64,000 nt of DNA from Patescibacteria group bacterium. GTDB taxonomy: Bacteria > Patescibacteriota > Minisyncoccia > Phycocordibacterales > JBHPGB01. The notes under the pieces are model-generated. The model was not told where the DNA came from. It ran no database searches and worked only from the letters and a program-made list of their open reading frames with translations. Where the stretch lies: positions 3,190 to 67,189 of the forward strand of contig JBHPGB010000001.1 in NCBI GenBank assembly GCA_042571085.1. Reading direction: 5' to 3'. This document shows positions 47,075 through 56,591 of the stretch, piece after piece. Each line of letters opens with the position of its first letter. Position 1 is the first letter of the stretch. A program made the translations under genes and the position numbers.

Positions 47075-47160
47075 TTCGATTCTCCCCATCTCTCACAAAC
47101 GCAAACGCCGCCAAAGCAATGCTTTGGCGGCGGCGTTTTGTGGAGATGGGGAGAATCGAA
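47075..47160. repeat. About 85-bp near-perfect palindrome built from inverted copies of the tmRNA T-arm/acceptor (TTCGATTCTCCCCATCTC) around an 11-bp GC hairpin
   Basis: Left arm 47075-47117, loop AAT, right arm 47121-47160; inner GCCGCCAAAGC/GCTTTGGCGGC. Confidence 0.65.
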
Positions 47161-47685
47161 CTCCCGTGCAAATAATGCTTCTGAATGAGTCTACAAAGGT
47201 TAGTACACTTTGGTTTGTTTAGAAGAGTGAGCTAAAAAGTGAACAAAATTTCTCACACCTCGATTCTCTATGTTTCGGTATTGTATCGAGAAATAATACT
47301 CTTTCCGATTAAATACTTCTTAAGAAAACCTCAGAATTTTAGACGAGACAAAGTAAAAAATATAAAGAATATCCTTAGATATTTTGAATATTTTTTGCAA
47401 AGTCGTAGTCAAAATTATGGTGTTTTCAAGGAGTAGTTAATCGGAAAGGGTATAAAACAAGACCTAGTCTGAAAAATATTACACTCAGATTTCACCTATC
47501 AAACTTTAGTGAACTGAACGCCGGCTTAGGCTAAAGCGTAAGCTGGAGAAGCAAAGTATGGGCTAACCATTGCTTTTGCTTTTTGTGACAAGTTTGCACT
47601 TATCGTGTGTAGCCTTTTGAATAGTTACTACAGCTATCCTTCGCACATGCAAAAGGGAAATCATCTGTCGATACCGATCACCCCC
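47141..47685 (-). ncRNA. ssrA: tmRNA (ssrA) candidate, unusually long (about 545 nt) with about 200-nt AT-rich insertion before the T-arm
   Basis: 5' GGGGGUGAUCGGUAUCGACAG (tmRNA 5' consensus), acceptor pairing GGGGGUG/CAUCUCC with G3-U wobble, tag ORF ending ...ASPAYALA-UAA, 3' GGGAG-UUCGAUU-CUCCC T-arm; adjacent to smpB. Confidence 0.6.
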
Positions 47686-48610: not shown

Positions 48611-50536
48611 ATGAAAACAAATAATCAAAATAAAAGAAAAGGAAGAAAGAAAAAGCCAACGATGTGGCAGGCTTTTTTGGCGAATATTGTGAGCATCATA
48701 TTGGTGTTTGTGCTTATTATTTCCACATATTCTCTTTTAAGTGAGAATCAGAAAGATATTGAAAAAATTTCTATTTCAGATCTAGCAGGACAAATCGTTG
48801 ATGGTCGTGTGGAGAGTATTGTTGTTGAAGGAGAAAAATTGAAAATTACTAGTGTAGAGGAAATTGTGTTTGAATCTAAAAAAGAAACAGAGGCGGCACT
48901 TTCCGAAACACTTGCCAACTATGGTGTCACACCAGAGCATCTTGCCAGTGTAAATATTGAAATAAAAAATCCGAGCGGTCTTGGATATTGGCTAATGAAT
49001 CTCGCGCCATTCCTTTTTCCAATCATTTTCTTAGTATTTCTATTTTGGCTGCTTACCCGACAGGTGAAAGGTGCTGGTATGCAGGCATTTAGTTTTGGGC
49101 AAAGCAAGGCCCGTGTAATTGATCCAAAAGATAAAGGTCAAAAAATTACTTTTGCGAATGTTGCAGGTGTGAAAGAGGCCAAAGAAGAATTGAAAGAAAT
49201 TGTAGATTTTCTAAAAAACCCAAAGAAATTTATTGAAATTGGTGCACGTATTCCAAAGGGTGTGCTTTTGATGGGTGCACCAGGGACTGGTAAAACATTG
49301 CTCGCACGAGCGGTTGCCGGAGAGGCGAATGTGCCATTCTTCATTATCTCAGGATCTGAATTTGTGGAGATGTTTGTGGGGGTTGGAGCAAGTCGTGTGA
49401 GAGATCTTTTTAAAATGGCGAAAAAATCAGCACCTGCAATTATATTTATTGATGAGATAGATGCCGTGGGACGTGTTCGTGGCGCTGGTATGGGTGGAGG
49501 AAATGATGAGCGCGAACAAACTCTTAATCAAATTTTGGTTGAGATGGATGGTTTTGAGCCACAAGAAAAAGTAATCGTAATGGCAGCAACAAACAGGCCA
49601 GACGTACTTGATCCCGCACTTTCTCGCCCAGGAAGATTTGATCGTCGAGTGACTCTTGATTTACCTGACCGTAATGACCGTGAGGAAATTTTGAAAATTC
49701 ACGCAGTTAAAAAACCATTTGCTGAGGATGTGGACTTGCGCGTGATCGCTGAGCGCACACCTGGATTTTCAGGAGCTGATTTATACTCGCTTATGAATGA
49801 GGGAGCAATTTTGGCAGCGCGTGAAGATCGTAAAAAAGTTTCACAGTTTGATTTGATCCGTTCTATTGAAAAGGTAATGCTTGGCCCTGAGCGTAAGAGT
49901 CATATACTTTCTAAAAAAGAAAAAGAAATTACCGCATATCATGAAGCGGGACATGCGCTTGTGTCTTCAGTGCTTCCTTATGCTGATCCTGTACACAAGA
50001 TTTCTATTATTGCGCGTGGACGTGCAGGTGGATATACATTGAAGCTTCCAATTGAAGAGAGAAAGCTGCAATCAAAGAAAGAGTTTCTTGATGATATTGC
50101 GATGTCGCTTGGTGGTTATGCTGCTGAAAAAATGATATTTGGTGATATTACTACAGGACCATCAAATGATTTACAGGTTTCTACTGCGCTTGCACGAGCG
50201 ATGGTGACACGCTGGGGAATGAGTGACGAGCTTGGTCCTGTGGCGCTTGAGGGTTCTGGCGGAAAAGCGATGTTTGGGAGAGGTTTAGATGGCAAGGAGT
50301 ATTCAGAGAAAGTGAGTGCAGATATTGATCGAGAAGTTTCAAAAATTATGAATGAAGGTATTACACGTGCCACACAAACCCTGACTGATCATCGCAAAGC
50401 ACTTGAGGCAATTGCAAAGAAGCTTATTGAGGTGGAAACAATTGAACGAGAAGATTTTGAAAAGCTTTTGGTTGCAAATGGGATTACCCTGAAAGAAGAC
50501 ACAGATAAATCAAGCCCTTTACAAGATACTAAATAA
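48611..50536 (+). CDS. ftsH: ATP-dependent zinc metalloprotease FtsH
   Basis: Walker A GPPGTGKT, SRH, HEAGH zinc site; 641 aa. Confidence 0.95.
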
Positions 50537-50555
50537 GTTTTATTATCATTGTATT

Positions 50556-50586
50556 GCGCGTAAGCGGCATTGGTAGAGCGCAGAAG
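50556..50586 (+). pseudogene. Degenerate 5' half of a tRNA paralog (to anticodon stem), interrupted by IR-bounded insert
   Basis: GCGCGTAagcggcaTTGGTAGAGCGCAGAag vs intact GCGCGTAtagctcagTTGGTAGAGCGCAGAgc. Confidence 0.5.
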
Positions 50587-50605
50587 TATATCAAAATAAT
50601 TTTAA
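50587..50605. repeat. Left 19-bp perfect inverted repeat TATATCAAAATAATTTTAA flanking the tRNA
   Basis: Exact reverse complement at 50719-50737. Confidence 0.8.
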
Positions 50606-50627
50606 AATAATATATGGAAATATGAGT

Positions 50628-50700
50628 GCGCGTATAGCTCAGTTGGTAGAGCGCAGAGCTTATACCTCTGTGGTCCTAGGTTCAAGTCCTAGTGCGCGCA
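50628..50700 (+). tRNA. tRNA with anticodon UAU (tRNA-Ile decoding AUA by anticodon; 73 nt, no encoded CCA)
   Basis: Cloverleaf: acceptor GCGCGTA/TGCGCGC, D-arm GCTC-AGTTGGTA-GAGC, anticodon stem CAGAG/CTCTG loop CTTATAC, T-arm CTAGG-TTCAAGT-CCTAG. Confidence 0.85.
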
Positions 50701-50718
50701 CTCATCATTTCATATAGA

Positions 50719-50737
50719 TTAAAATTATTTTGATATA
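50719..50737. repeat. Right 19-bp perfect inverted repeat TTAAAATTATTTTGATATA
   Basis: Reverse complement of 50587-50605. Confidence 0.8.
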
Positions 50738-50763
50738 CCTCTGTGGCCCTAGGTCTCCCTGAG
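50738..50763 (+). pseudogene. Degenerate 3' portion of the interrupted tRNA paralog
   Basis: taCCTCTGTGGcCCTAGGTctccc vs intact taCCTCTGTGGtCCTAGGTtcaag. Confidence 0.45.
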
Positions 50764-51082
50764 AATGGGTATCAAAACAAAACTGGAGCTATGGCTCCGG
50801 TTTTGTTTTGCATATAAAAAATAAGGCGAATCATGGATATGTTCGCCTTATGTAATTACGCTATATACAATTATTTTTTCGGCTTGTGTTTAAACAAAAA
50901 TTTAATAAACAAGCCAAGTAAAAACCAGATAGAGATTATTAGAAACCAAGGTATCAACCATGGTTTTTTTATACAACCAATGCCTGATTTACTAGATCGA
51001 TGTCTTTTGATAGGAAGATCTTTCACGACGTATCCCCCTTATAGAACATACATGATTTAATTGTACAACATTTACTACCAAA

Positions 51083-56167: not shown

Positions 56168-56197
56168 GTGCGGAGAGTGAGGGATTCGCCCCTCACA
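56168..56197 (-). repeat. Degenerate copy of tRNA-Ser 3' end (T-arm with 6-nt loop + acceptor + 3' flank)
   Basis: GAGGGgcgaatCCCTCACTCTCCGCACTG vs intact GAGGGttcgaatCCCTCACTCTCCGCACTG. Confidence 0.6.
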
Positions 56198-56264
56198 AAT
56201 CAAAGATTTGTTCCGAAACGCACTGTAAATATATTCGCTCCGCTCATTATTTACAGGCGCCTAC

Positions 56265-56285
56265 GGTTCGAATCCCTCACTCTCC
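56265..56285 (+). repeat. Inverted-orientation copy of tRNA-Ser 3' end
   Basis: GGTTCGAATCCCTCACTCTCC on + strand. Confidence 0.6.
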
Positions 56286-56353
56286 TTTATACGTTGTTGC
56301 GAAAATATTATTAATCGAGCAGTGTTTCGAAGACTGGTAAATAAACTACAGTG

Positions 56354-56440
56354 CGGAGAGTGAGGGATTCGAACCCTCGGTCCGTTTTCACGAACACATC
56401 CTTAGCAGGGATGCGCTTTCGACCACTCAGCCAACTCTCC
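56354..56440 (-). tRNA. tRNA-Ser (anticodon GCU), class II with long variable arm
   Basis: GGAGAGT-TG-GCT-GAGTGGTCGAA-AGC-G-CATCC-CTGCTAA-GGATG-TGTTCGTGAAAACGGACC-GAGGG-TTCGAAT-CCCTC-ACTCTCC-G. Confidence 0.88.
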
Positions 56441-56574
56441 GCACTATATTCTATTATTTAATTTTTGTTTTGTTCGGGATTCTCTCCATGGCTTGGCAGG
56501 GTAGAGATACTCTTTCGAACCCTAAAGGACTGCTGTTTGCAAATCAATCGCTTCGCTCTTGAGCAAACAGGGAG

Positions 56575-56591
56575 CACTCAGCCAACTCTCC
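56575..56591 (-). repeat. Isolated copy of tRNA-Ser 5' 17 nt (GGAGAGTTGGCTGAGTG) followed by unrelated hairpin
   Basis: Exact match to tRNA-Ser positions 1-17; remainder does not fold as tRNA. Confidence 0.55.

What the first reader, a model, noticed from the sequence alone, without database searches (positions are those of the whole stretch)
50556..50763. Intact tRNA(UAU) carried on a 151-bp segment with perfect 19-bp inverted repeats, inserted into the anticodon loop of a degenerate copy of the same tRNA
Outer fragments GCGCGTA..GCAGAag (50556-50586) and taCCTCTGTGG.CCTAGGT (50738-50763) reconstitute a tRNA paralog. It is split exactly between anticodon stem and loop by TATATCAAAATAATTTTAA-[tRNA]-TTAAAATTATTTTGATATA. 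The outer copy lacks a T-loop and is probably dead. This looks like a miniature IR-bounded element carrying a tRNA, or a remnant of an intron-like insertion. The UAU anticodon (AUA-Ile decoding without lysidine) is itself uncommon.
Basis: seen in the sequence. Interest (0 to 1): 0.65.

Follow-up and report, generated by a model that had tools for sequence, protein, structure and literature searches.

The report
tRNA gene nested inside its pseudogene
An intact isoleucine tRNA gene on a small hairpin-forming DNA segment sits inside the anticodon loop of the older, now dead, copy of the same gene, and about one in seven related Patescibacteria genomes show the same "tRNA within a tRNA" layout, which I did not find described in the literature searched.

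Summary
Window 50556-50754 holds an intact tRNA-Ile(UAU) (50628-50700). It is flanked by arms with a perfect 19-bp inverted repeat, and these are flanked in turn by the two halves of a second, decayed copy of the same tRNA.

The window is a Paceibacteria (CPR) chromosome. ftsH followed by tRNA-Ile(UAU) is conserved in about 77 related genomes. In the closest relatives with a simple gene, the same promoter and terminator flank one tRNA, so the outer copy is the ancestral resident gene and the inner copy is transcribed from its promoter.

Eleven scattered genomes have the same nesting, always split at the TATA of the anticodon loop (C-T-TATA-C) with TATA at each junction. In six of them, deleting the insert restores a valid outer tRNA. 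Inner and outer often differ throughout, so the inner copy was imported.

Relatives' inserts share a covarying hairpin with an invariant tandem G·A. This hairpin also occurs free-standing. The window's insert lacks it.

Most likely this is site-specific insertion of a palindromic, tRNA-carrying cassette that replaces the gene it disrupts. The enzyme is unknown, and no other copy of the window's repeat was found. An RNA-intron reading is weaker but not excluded for relatives.

The parts
50518..50546 (+). Resident sigma-70-type promoter (TTTACA - 17 nt - TATTAT). It ends 9 nt before the outer 5' fragment and is the only promoter-like site in 50400-50900.
   Evidence: The same TTTACA...TATCAT/TAATAT element precedes the simple tRNA-Ile(UAU) of relatives L083/L084 and L082.
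50556..50586 (+). Outer (resident, dead) tRNA-Ile(UAU), 5' fragment. The acceptor strand GCGCGTA is intact, positions 8-16 are scrambled (the D stem no longer pairs), TTGGTAGAGCGCAGA is identical to the inner copy, and the end of the anticodon stem and start of the loop are mutated (AAG for GCT).
   Evidence: D2, 15/15; no tRNA is called after in-silico removal of the insert; 17.5 bits.
50587..50590 (+). Left TATA. This is the anticodon-loop target TATA (positions 34-37 of the resident gene) and the first 4 nt of the inverted repeat.
   Evidence: The same TATA junction is seen in L010, L047, L062, L085 and L288.
50587..50627 (+). Left arm of the insert (41 nt), which is the 5' leader of the inner tRNA. 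Its first 19 nt form the perfect IR, and the rest pairs imperfectly with the right arm up to position -1.
   Evidence: (I1, I13).
50628..50700 (+). Inner, intact tRNA-Ile(UAU), 73 nt, with discriminator A73 and no encoded CCA. It is presumed to be the working AUA decoder.
   Evidence: 72.5 bits. It is 72/74 identical to the inner tRNA of L288.
50701..50737 (+). Right arm of the insert (37 nt), which is the 3' trailer of the inner tRNA. Its last 19 nt are the perfect IR, ending in the right TATA (50734-50737).
50738..50754 (+). Outer tRNA 3' fragment: anticodon-stem 3' strand, variable loop and T-stem 5' strand (CCTCTGTGGCCCTAGGT). It ends in the T-loop. The T-stem 3' strand and acceptor 3' strand are gone.
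   Evidence: D1, 20/21 including the TATA; nhmmer profile positions 35-67 only, 8.4 bits.
50755..50772 (+). An 18-nt filler (CTCCCTGAGAATGGGTAT, a small CCC...GGG hairpin) that replaces the roughly 20 nt expected for the rest of the T-arm and acceptor strand. The break lies at the GGT|T T-loop position where relatives carry insertions.
   Evidence: T-loop insertions in L042, L086, L016 and L021 at the same position.
50773..50810 (+). Terminator hairpin shared with convergent recG. It is homologous to the terminator that directly follows the simple tRNA in L083.
   Evidence: (I3).

Best explanation
The resident tRNA-Ile(UAU) gene downstream of ftsH was split at the TATA of its anticodon loop (C-T-TATA-C). 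The split was made by DNA-level, site-specific insertion of a hairpin-forming (palindromic) cassette of about 147 bp that carries a complete tRNA-Ile(UAU).

Because the cassette brings a working copy of the gene it destroys, the insertion costs the cell nothing. The inner copy took over AUA decoding. The outer copy became a pseudogene and then suffered further lesions at its D-loop and T-loop.

The inner tRNA has no promoter of its own. It is transcribed from the resident promoter within a precursor of roughly 220-250 nt, in which the two cassette arms form a helix of about 40 bp that continues the acceptor stem.

Inferred steps:
- This helix forces the inner halves to pair with each other rather than with the near-identical outer halves.
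- It is probably cut by a double-strand-specific RNase (RNase III type) before RNase P, 3' trimming and CCA addition.

The window is an old, decayed example of a process that recurs across Paceibacteria. Any tRNA-Ile(UAU) allele can be either invader or resident, so these genes are replaced serially from the inside.

Shown: the anatomy, the ancestral status of the outer copy, recurrence at the same site, and the foreign origin of the inner copy in several relatives. Inferred: the insertion chemistry (a TATA-core recombinase or a TA/TATA-duplicating transposase acting in trans) and the RNA processing route.
For: 1. Anatomy and non-randomness of the repeat and fold.

2. The outer copy sits where the single gene sits in the closest relatives. 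The promoter TTTACA-17-TATTAT lies 9 nt upstream of the outer 5' end, and the terminator follows the outer remnant directly. L083/L084 (81% FtsH identity) have the homologous promoter and terminator around one simple tRNA, and L082 (83%) has the homologous promoter upstream of one. No other promoter-like site lies inside the element.

3. Eleven of about 77 related genomes are nested at the same TATA: the window, L010, L029, L039, L042, L044, L047, L062, L078, L085 and L288. They are scattered over the FtsH tree. ARAGORN itself calls the outer gene with a 172-nt 'intron' in L010 and a 147-nt one in L078.

4. Deleting the insert in silico restores a valid tRNA-Ile(tat) in L010, L044, L078, L029, L085 and L288, but not in the window, L039, L062 or L042. 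This is a gradient of decay.

5. Inner and outer differ throughout, with compensated stems, in L010, L042, L062, L078, L085 and L288. Remnants of the displaced allele lie next to the new one in L016 and L021. This points to import, not local duplication.

6. L044 and L078 have FtsH 92% identical at the protein level and 80% at the DNA level, and the whole nested unit is 91% identical. Their inner tRNAs are identical and the arms nearly so. Yet the outer tRNAs differ at all 5 anticodon-stem pairs, and the unit is relocated and inverted.

7. TATA is repeated at every junction, including TATA-E1-TATA-E2(tRNA)-TATA in L010 and L047.

8. Leader-trailer pairing is seen only in nested loci. The six most stable leader-trailer duplexes, and nine of the ten most stable, belong to nested loci (one of them the partly nested L064); simple loci have z near 0.

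9. No locus has an interrupted gene without an intact copy.
Against: - No second copy of the window's 19-bp IR exists in 64 kb. The metagenome scan returned only chance AT-rich single hits.
- No transposase or recombinase is linked to any nested locus, and no empty-site/filled-site polymorphism was found.
- TATA is palindromic, so target duplication, a recombination core and simple extension of the IR cannot be told apart.
- In the window, inner and outer are the same allele, so a purely local origin cannot be excluded for this locus.
- Cassette arms are not conserved in sequence between genomes. The window and L288 have 97% identical inner tRNAs but unrelated arms. This is unlike transposase-bound TIRs and looks more like selection for pairing.
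- The relatives' hairpin carries a strand-specific, invariant tandem G·A and more G·T than A·C pairs (10 against 3). This hints at an RNA-level role.
Confidence: 0.55

Rival explanations
1. Local, non-mobile origin. The tRNA gene was duplicated into itself by a replication or repair accident, such as template switching at the palindromic anticodon stem-loop or break repair using the sister copy. The complementary arms then arose or were perfected by quasi-palindrome correction and by selection for correct folding of the inner tRNA.
For: - In the window and in L044, inner and outer are the same allele.
- The inner copy's proximal leader (TGGAAATATGAGT) resembles the native leader of L082 (TGGAAATGTATGT).
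- Arms are not conserved in sequence between genomes, only in pairing.
- The 3' arm of L288 is duplicated after the outer 3' end.
- The window's tRNA-Ser and tmRNA genes also have nearby partial copies, which suggests a general instability of structured-RNA genes in this genome.
Against: - In six relatives the inner and outer copies are different alleles with compensated stems.
- The same TATA junction recurs in at least 7 separate lineages.
- No known slippage mechanism yields a direct full copy flanked by inverted non-tRNA arms.
- A tandem-triplication reading (73-nt offsets in the window) fails in other loci (offsets 68 and 78 in L044). It would also need complete sequence turnover of two half-genes.
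Confidence: 0.2
2. An RNA-level intervening sequence. The insert is a new kind of bacterial tRNA intron, a hairpin with a tandem G·A motif that hosts a second tRNA. An unknown nuclease and ligase would remove it, so fresh nested genes would yield two tRNAs. The window would then be a case where the outer exons have since died.
For: - The outer exons are perfect cloverleaves in 6 of 11 genomes.
- The relatives' hairpin pairs the anticodon TAT with ATA, as eukaryal and archaeal introns do.
- It covaries strongly: 93.6% paired, and 9 of 12 pairs have compensatory changes.
- It keeps an invariant, strand-specific G·A tandem at a fixed distance (CTTAT-N9-YGAR).
- It has G·T in excess over A·C on the sense strand.
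- Outer copies also carry small hairpins exactly in the D- and T-loops. Patescibacteria are known to be intron-rich (PMC13011429).
Against: - No catalytic RNA family matches, and 77 nt of non-tRNA sequence is too short for group I.
- No bulge-helix-bulge is visible in the fold or by inspection of the junctions (no motif search was run).
- The hairpin also occurs outside tRNA genes (L037, L044, L065).
- The window's insert lacks the motif altogether.
- Outer copies decay or lose halves in many lineages (window, L039, L062, L064).
- No genome relies on an interrupted gene alone.
- To my knowledge, protein-dependent tRNA splicing has not been reported in bacteria.
Confidence: 0.12
3. Scars of ordinary integrase-mediated integration and excision of genomic islands or phages that use the tRNA anticodon loop and T-loop as attachment sites, with the island interiors later deleted.
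For: - The breakpoints coincide with the classical integrase sublocations, the anticodon loop and the T-loop (Williams 2002, as cited in PMC9897764).
- 3' remnants with duplicated trailers occur in L064, L073, L074 and at the window's tRNA-Ser.
- L085 and L086 differ by a 91-nt T-loop insert with a 7-nt converted flank.
Against: [quoted passage not shown] It does not give a 5' fragment and a 3' fragment bracketing a full copy within 150 bp.
- No integrase gene or island content is present.
- Two independent island remnants would not be complementary to each other over 40 nt.
Confidence: 0.07
4. Chance similarity or an assembly artefact.
For: The source is a metagenome-assembled genome, and palindromes can arise from chimeric reads.
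Against: - The structure is identical in two independent assemblies.
- Analogous structures occur in 10 other MAGs from different studies.
- Shuffle controls reject chance.
Confidence: 0.01

Closest known systems
Bacterial MITEs and hairpin repeats (Correia elements, REPINs/BIMEs, Rickettsia palindromic elements)
   Same: - Small size (about 150 bp), with terminal inverted repeats and a whole-element hairpin.
- No coding capacity.
- AT-rich TA/TATA junctions.
- Insertion into functional genes, including RNA genes, at structurally tolerated places.
- The relatives' E1 hairpin shows REPIN-like compensatory evolution and also occurs free-standing.
   Different: - It carries a complete, functional tRNA gene as cargo.
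- It sits inside another copy of that same gene.
- No multi-copy family was found for the window's arms.
- No partner transposase or RAYT is known.
- Arms differ in sequence between genomes.
tRNA gene fragments made by integrative elements (attL/attR; Williams 2002; PMC9897764)
   Same: Partial tRNA copies lie next to an intact gene. The breakpoints are in the anticodon loop and T-loop. The incoming DNA restores the function it disrupts.
   Different: - The incoming DNA is 150 bp rather than kilobases, with no integrase.
- It brings a whole tRNA rather than a 3' part.
- Both a 5' and a 3' fragment of the old gene remain and bracket the new one.
- The flanks are inverted repeats.
Group I introns in Patescibacteria tRNA anticodon loops (PMC13011429)
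   Same: Same phylum and same loop. That paper reports insertions at nearly all anticodon-loop positions. Standard tRNA finders also miss the interrupted gene.
   Different: There is no group I core. Only 77 nt of the insert is non-tRNA. The insert contains a tRNA. The exons are dead in the window.
Archaeal disrupted tRNA genes (multiple-intron, split and permuted tRNAs; PMC4090602, PMC4390854)
   Same: Interruptions occur in the D-, anticodon- and T-loops. The anticodon pairs with the insert. Both fit the idea that interrupting a tRNA gene destroys attachment sites for mobile elements.
   Different: The organism is a bacterium. No bulge-helix-bulge is visible, and no splicing endonuclease is known for it. 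An intact redundant copy is always present inside.
tRNA-Ile(UAU) AUA decoding without lysidine (Mycoplasma mobile; PMC3575796)
   Same: A bacterial tRNA-Ile with an unmodified-type UAU anticodon gene is the AUA reader.
   Different: Here it is a clade-wide trait of Paceibacteria. Whether tilS is absent could not be tested from 64 kb.

Membership tests
MITE (miniature inverted-repeat transposable element) | Terminal inverted repeats | tested here: met
   19/19 perfect IR at 50587-50605 and 50719-50737. It extends imperfectly over the whole arms.
MITE (miniature inverted-repeat transposable element) | Target-site duplication | tested here: inconclusive
   TATA is present at both junctions and at every junction in L010 and L047. 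TATA is palindromic, however, and is also part of the IR.
MITE (miniature inverted-repeat transposable element) | Multiple copies in the genome | tested here: not met
   No other copy at up to 3 mismatches in 64 kb. The rest of the genome was not available. The metagenome scan gave only chance single hits.
MITE (miniature inverted-repeat transposable element) | A related autonomous element with the same ends | not tested
   No transposase lies next to any nested locus. Whole genomes were not searchable.
Group I intron in a tRNA anticodon loop | Conserved catalytic core (Rfam group I model) | tested here: not met
   No Rfam hit in the window at gathering thresholds. None in eight related loci at E<=1. 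The non-tRNA part is only 77 nt.
Group I intron in a tRNA anticodon loop | The joined exons form a functional tRNA | tested here: not met
   With the insert removed, the window's outer copy is not called by ARAGORN (17.5 bits). This feature is met in six relatives.
Protein-spliced (bulge-helix-bulge) tRNA intron | Bulge-helix-bulge motif at the exon-intron junctions | tested here: inconclusive
   The predicted fold is one continuous helix from the outer anticodon stem into the arms, without the two 3-nt bulges. In relatives the junction is a 2-nt/9-10-nt asymmetric loop (by inspection). No dedicated bulge-helix-bulge search was run, so this rests on one MFE fold and reading by eye.
Protein-spliced (bulge-helix-bulge) tRNA intron | Splicing endonuclease and ligase encoded in the genome | not testable with these tools
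   Only 64 kb of the genome was available.
Integrase att-site tRNA fragment | [quoted passage not shown] | tested here: not met
   Both a 5' and a 3' fragment bracket a full copy within 200 bp, with no ORF inside.
Integrase att-site tRNA fragment | Breakpoint in the anticodon loop or T-loop | tested here: met
   The break is at the anticodon-loop TATA. The outer copy is truncated at T-loop position GGT|T.
E1 hairpin family of relatives (P1, tandem G·A, P2) | CTTAT-N9-YGAR ... YGAR-N4-P1' architecture | tested here: not met
   The covariance model R1 finds no copy in the window at E<=1. The window's arms have no YGAR at the required positions. The family itself is well supported in relatives.
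tRNA-Ile(UAU) AUA decoder without lysidine | UAU anticodon in a canonical tRNA-Ile body | tested here: met
   All 70 related loci with a tRNA in view have it.
tRNA-Ile(UAU) AUA decoder without lysidine | Absence of tilS and of tRNA-Ile(CAU) | not testable with these tools

The most novel reading that the evidence does not exclude
Paceibacteria harbour a family of self-compensating 'matryoshka' cassettes. These are small palindromic elements that carry a complete tRNA gene and insert site-specifically into the anticodon-loop TATA of the resident copy of that same tRNA. The essential gene is therefore replaced serially from the inside, with the old halves left as decaying shells.

A stronger version is that the conserved G·A hairpin is a new, protein-dependent bacterial tRNA intervening sequence, and that fresh nested genes yield two tRNAs from one transcript.
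Probability: 0.35. Interest if true: 0.85.

Novelty: new variant of a known kind. Interest (0 to 1): 0.7.

Why it matters
If the cassette reading is right, this is a mobile or semi-mobile element that solves the problem of inserting into an essential single-copy gene by bringing a replacement along. That is the same logic as phage att sites restoring a tRNA 3' end, but taken to a whole gene in 150 bp.

- It would explain why tRNA-Ile(UAU) alleles are distributed so patchily among close relatives.
- It would show that tRNA genes can turn over by invasion rather than by mutation.
- It would add a new class of interrupted tRNA genes that standard annotation misses or misreads. ARAGORN's intron mode calls chimeric 'tRNAs' here.

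The covarying tandem-G·A hairpin in relatives is an uncharacterised structured element worth testing in its own right.

The window's tRNA-Ser and tmRNA genes show related scars. The process may therefore be general for structured-RNA genes in these reduced genomes.

Tried and rejected
1. Tandem triplication. In the window both outer pieces lie exactly 73 nt from their inner counterparts, and promoter to terminator spans about three tRNA lengths. Other nested loci have unequal offsets (68 and 78 in L044), and the 'missing' half-copies show no residual similarity. I treated this as coincidence.

2. A general leader-trailer processing stem for tRNA-Ile. This was rejected because strong pairing is confined to nested loci.

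3. Homology between L082's 78-nt leader and the window's outer half plus left arm, which would date the event. It is not significant (178 of 500 shuffles score as well).

4. Genome- or metagenome-wide copies of the 19-bp IR. The scan returned 120 single, AT-rich chance hits with no tRNA context, so it was uninformative.

5. Phage carriage of the cassette. No nested tRNA-Ile was found in the viral contigs.

6. Known RNA families in the inserts. None were found.

7. The E1 hairpin in the window. None was found.

8. Empty-site polymorphism in the L085/L086 population. The other contigs were too short.

9. Association with a GIY-YIG endonuclease. GIY-YIG genes abut the tRNA in L016 and L032, and by eye in L035, but in none of the loci nested at the TATA. 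I did not adopt this as the mechanism.

10. L008 was first counted as nested. On inspection it is an upstream 5' two-thirds fragment with its own decayed anticodon arm, so it was excluded.
Full report
**What is in the sequence**

The region 50518-50810 reads in this order:
- a sigma-70-like promoter, TTTACA-17-TATTAT (50518-50546);
- a 31-nt 5' fragment of a tRNA-Ile(UAU) (50556-50586);
- TATA, followed by the rest of a 41-nt arm (50587-50627);
- an intact 73-nt tRNA-Ile(UAU) (50628-50700; ARAGORN; Rfam 72.5 bits);
- a 37-nt arm ending in TATA (50701-50737);
- a 17-nt 3' fragment of the tRNA, running from the anticodon-stem 3' strand to the T-stem 5' strand (50738-50754);
- 18 nt of filler;
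- a terminator hairpin (50773-50810).

The outer 19 nt of the two arms are perfectly complementary. That 19-mer has no other copy in the window at up to 3 mismatches, and 0 of 100 shuffles reach two matches.

The outer fragments match the inner tRNA 15/15 and 20/21.

As RNA, the whole unit folds into one long helix that extends the inner acceptor stem, beginning with a -1:73 pair, and is closed by the outer anticodon stem. The fold is -114.5 kcal/mol with z = -10.7.

Small corrections to the break point and the 3' limit are given in the observation check.

**Where it comes from**

The neighbouring genes are smpB, tmRNA, ftsH and recG. FtsH is at most 75% identical to species-representative genomes, all of them Paceibacteria/Nomurabacteria-type Patescibacteria MAGs.

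A second strain with an identical structure exists in an independent assembly (L081). This rules out an assembly artefact.

**The tRNA is native and the anticodon is normal for the clade**

In 70 of 80 related loci a tRNA-Ile(UAU) lies just downstream of ftsH. In three of the other ten a tRNA fragment runs off the contig end; the rest show none in the sequence held. UAU is thus the standard AUA reader in this clade. It is not a peculiarity of this locus, although it is rare in bacteria generally (PMC3575796).

**The outer copy is the old resident gene**

The closest relatives with a simple gene are L083/L084 (81% FtsH identity) and L082 (83%). L083/L084 have the homologous promoter a few nucleotides upstream of their single tRNA and the homologous terminator directly after it; L082 has the homologous promoter further upstream and its own terminator.

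In the window those two elements bracket the outer fragments, and no other promoter-like site lies inside. The inner tRNA is therefore expressed from the resident promoter, through the outer 5' half.

With the insert removed in silico, the window's outer copy is not recognised as a tRNA. Its D stem no longer pairs, and the T-stem 3' strand and the acceptor 3' strand are gone.

**The architecture recurs**

I searched with k-mers and with a profile of the tRNA. This found the same nesting in L010, L029, L039, L042, L044, L047, L062, L078, L085/L086 and L288. L064 is a partly deleted derivative.

That is 11 of about 77 genomes, scattered over an FtsH tree in at least seven lineages.

In every case the resident gene is split within the TATA of the anticodon loop C-T-TATA-C, and TATA (or TAT) is present at both junctions. 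L010 and L047 read TATA-hairpin-TATA-[arm-tRNA-arm]-TATA.

ARAGORN in intron mode itself reports the outer genes of L010 and L078 as tRNA-Ile(tat), with introns of 172 nt and 147 nt.

After in-silico removal of the insert, the outer gene is a valid tRNA-Ile(tat) in L010, L044, L078, L029, L085 and L288. It is also valid in L047 once a D-loop hairpin is removed. It is decayed in the window, L039, L062 and L042.

Strong leader-trailer pairing is confined to nested loci.

**The inner copy is often foreign**

Two body types of tRNA-Ile(UAU) circulate: a 'C type' (CCGCCC..., 75 nt) and a 'G type' (GCGCGT/GGGCGC..., 74 nt).
- G-type genes sit inside C-type shells in L010, L042, L062 and L288.
- A C-type gene sits inside a GCGCCC shell in L085.
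- 3' remnants of C type lie beside intact G-type genes in L016 and L021.

L044 and L078 are close relatives, with FtsH 92% identical at the protein level and 80% at the DNA level. They share identical inner tRNAs and nearly identical arms (the whole nested unit is 91% identical). Their outer tRNAs nevertheless differ at all five anticodon-stem pairs and in the T stem, with each remaining a perfect cloverleaf. The whole unit also lies at a different place and in the opposite orientation.

This is hard to reconcile with vertical descent of one event. It fits insertion of the same cassette into different resident alleles.

In one population (L085 and L086, with identical FtsH protein), the outer gene differs by a 91-nt T-loop insert that brought 7 nt of foreign flanking exon with it. 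So the locus is still changing.

**A conserved hairpin in relatives, absent from the window**

In the relatives' inserts, the anticodon TAT plus 6 nt pairs with 6 nt plus ATA (P1). Three nucleotides further on there is YGAR. On the other strand there is YGAR, then 4 nt, then P1'.

On 13 sequences this structure:
- is 93.6% paired;
- shows compensatory changes at 9 of 12 pairs;
- beats all slid registers;
- keeps G14 A15 / G34 A35 invariant as a tandem G·A.

G·T pairs outnumber A·C pairs 10 to 3 on the tRNA-sense strand. The hairpin is therefore selected in single-stranded form, as RNA or as one DNA strand.

The inner tRNA sits either at the tip of this hairpin (L044, L078, L029, L062, L042, L085, L288) or after a closed hairpin (L010, L047, L039).

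A covariance model and a descriptor scan also find the hairpin free-standing upstream of ftsH in L037, L044 and L065. So it is a repeated element rather than a tRNA-specific intron.

The window has no copy. Its arms form a plain AT-rich helix.

**How it most likely works**

Shown:
- A hairpin-forming segment carrying a whole tRNA-Ile(UAU) lies in the anticodon-loop TATA of the resident gene.
- The resident gene is dead.
- The inner gene depends on the resident promoter and terminator.

Inferred:
- Insertion was a site-specific DNA event at TATA. This could be a TA/TATA-duplicating transposase, or a recombinase whose substrate is the palindromic circle junction TTTTGA-TATA-TCAAAA recombining with CAGAGCT-TATA-CCTCTG.
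- It is tolerated because the cassette replaces the function it destroys.
- In the transcript the arm helix keeps the near-identical inner and outer halves from mispairing.
- A double-strand RNase then cuts the helix before RNase P, 3' trimming and CCA addition. CCA is not encoded.
- The extra lesions of the outer copy lie at the D-loop and at T-loop position GGT|T. These are the places where relatives carry small hairpin or 90-nt insertions. They look like further hits on a dead gene rather than random decay.

**Rivals**

A purely local duplication cannot be excluded for the window itself, because inner and outer are the same allele and the inner leader resembles a native leader. It does not explain the foreign inner copies elsewhere.

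A true RNA intron is suggested by the intact outer exons in six genomes and by the strand-specific hairpin. Against it:
- there is no ribozyme match and no bulge-helix-bulge is visible;
- the hairpin also occurs free-standing;
- the motif is absent from the window;
- outer copies have repeatedly decayed or been lost;
- no genome depends on an interrupted gene alone.

Ordinary integrase scars do not give a full copy bracketed by both halves of the old one, with complementary flanks (PMC9897764 describes the usual pattern).

**Comparison with the literature**

Group I introns in Patescibacteria tRNA anticodon loops are described (PMC13011429), but the inserts here are not of that kind.

Seven full-text searches, four of them aimed at this architecture, found no description of a tRNA gene nested in the anticodon loop of its own pseudogene. 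The library covers only part of the literature.

I class the finding as a new variant of known kinds, namely hairpin MITE/REPIN-like elements and self-restoring insertions into tRNA genes. A stronger reading remains possible, as set out in the novel case.

**Limits**

- Only 64 kb of this genome could be read.
- No enzyme is identified.
- No empty-site allele was found.
- All RNA-processing steps are inference.

Noticed in passing
window 56171-56591 (minus strand): The only other tRNA in the window, tRNA-Ser(GCU) at 56353-56440, is also surrounded by pieces of a second copy:
- a 17-nt 5' fragment (56591-56575) broken in the D-loop;
- an inverted copy of the 3' end (56265-56285);
- a direct 3' fragment starting in the T-loop, with the trailer duplicated (56188-56171 and beyond).

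There is also leader-trailer pairing around the intact gene (56340-56361 with 56434-56455). Nesting and replacement may therefore not be restricted to tRNA-Ile.
   Followed up: partly
window 47138-47685 (minus strand); arms 47296-47330 / 47419-47453: The tmRNA gene is 548 nt, against about 360-410 nt in relatives. It contains an AT-rich hairpin insertion of about 150 nt (35-nt arms, 83% complementary). The sequence is unrelated to the tRNA-Ile arms.
   Followed up: partly
window 47075-47109 vs 47126-47160: An inverted near-copy (80% over 35 nt) of the tmRNA 3' end (T-arm, acceptor strand and trailer) lies tail-to-tail immediately downstream of the tmRNA gene.
   Followed up: no
L044 2931-2991 (-), L065 2926-2991 (-), L037 2797-2864 (+): Free-standing copies of the tandem-G·A hairpin (E1) lie just upstream of ftsH. 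In L044 and L065 one arm, read on the ftsH strand, is TTTACA-N17-TATAAT, which is the predicted ftsH promoter. The element may therefore supply promoters.
   Followed up: partly
L085 6545-6560 vs L086 3588-3690: Two contigs encode the identical FtsH protein but differ in the outer tRNA. L086 has a 91-nt insertion in the T-loop, ending ...TACAGAATCTGTAAG, and the 7 nt to its left are converted to another allele's T-stem. L042 carries a clearly homologous insert at the same T-loop position; L286 shares the same ...TACAGAATCTGTAAG end before its 3' remnant, and L064, L073 and L074 have inserts or remnants at that position.
   Followed up: partly
L008, L047, L062 (outer 5' halves): Small homologous hairpins (for example CCTGCCAAAGGCAGACAGG) are inserted in the D-loop (after ..CAGTT in L008 and L062, a few nt earlier after ..GCTC in L047) of the displaced tRNA-Ile copies in three separate genomes.
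   Followed up: no
L016 4847-5161, L032 4932-5168, L035 upstream of 4945: Small GIY-YIG (UPF0213-like) ORFs end 7-13 nt before the tRNA-Ile(UAU) gene in L016 and L032, and apparently also in L035. L016 carries a replaced allele with a remnant of the old one. This is a possible endonuclease-linked route of tRNA allele replacement.
   Followed up: partly
L289 4678-5388: A 236-aa reverse transcriptase (RVT_1) gene lies about 110 nt downstream of the tRNA-Ile(UAU) in one relative.
   Followed up: no
L074, about 150 nt upstream and 160-250 nt downstream of the tRNA at 2863-2937: Two extra tandem 74-nt units each repeat the 9 nt upstream plus the first 12 nt of the tRNA. Downstream, a 3' fragment is followed by a duplicated trailer. 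L002, L003, L037, L038, L043 and L069 have a single 9-12-nt copy of the tRNA 5' end about 70-74 nt upstream.
   Followed up: no
loci L001-L080: The tRNA-Ile(UAU) is on the strand opposite to ftsH in 14 of 70 loci. These include five of the eight loci in this set that are nested at the TATA (plus the partly nested L064), so the locus is inverted or relocated unusually often.
   Followed up: partly
protein P0017: One FtsH homologue is 1082 aa long and carries LAGLIDADG and intein-splicing Pfam domains. It is an intein-containing FtsH in a related Patescibacterium.
   Followed up: no
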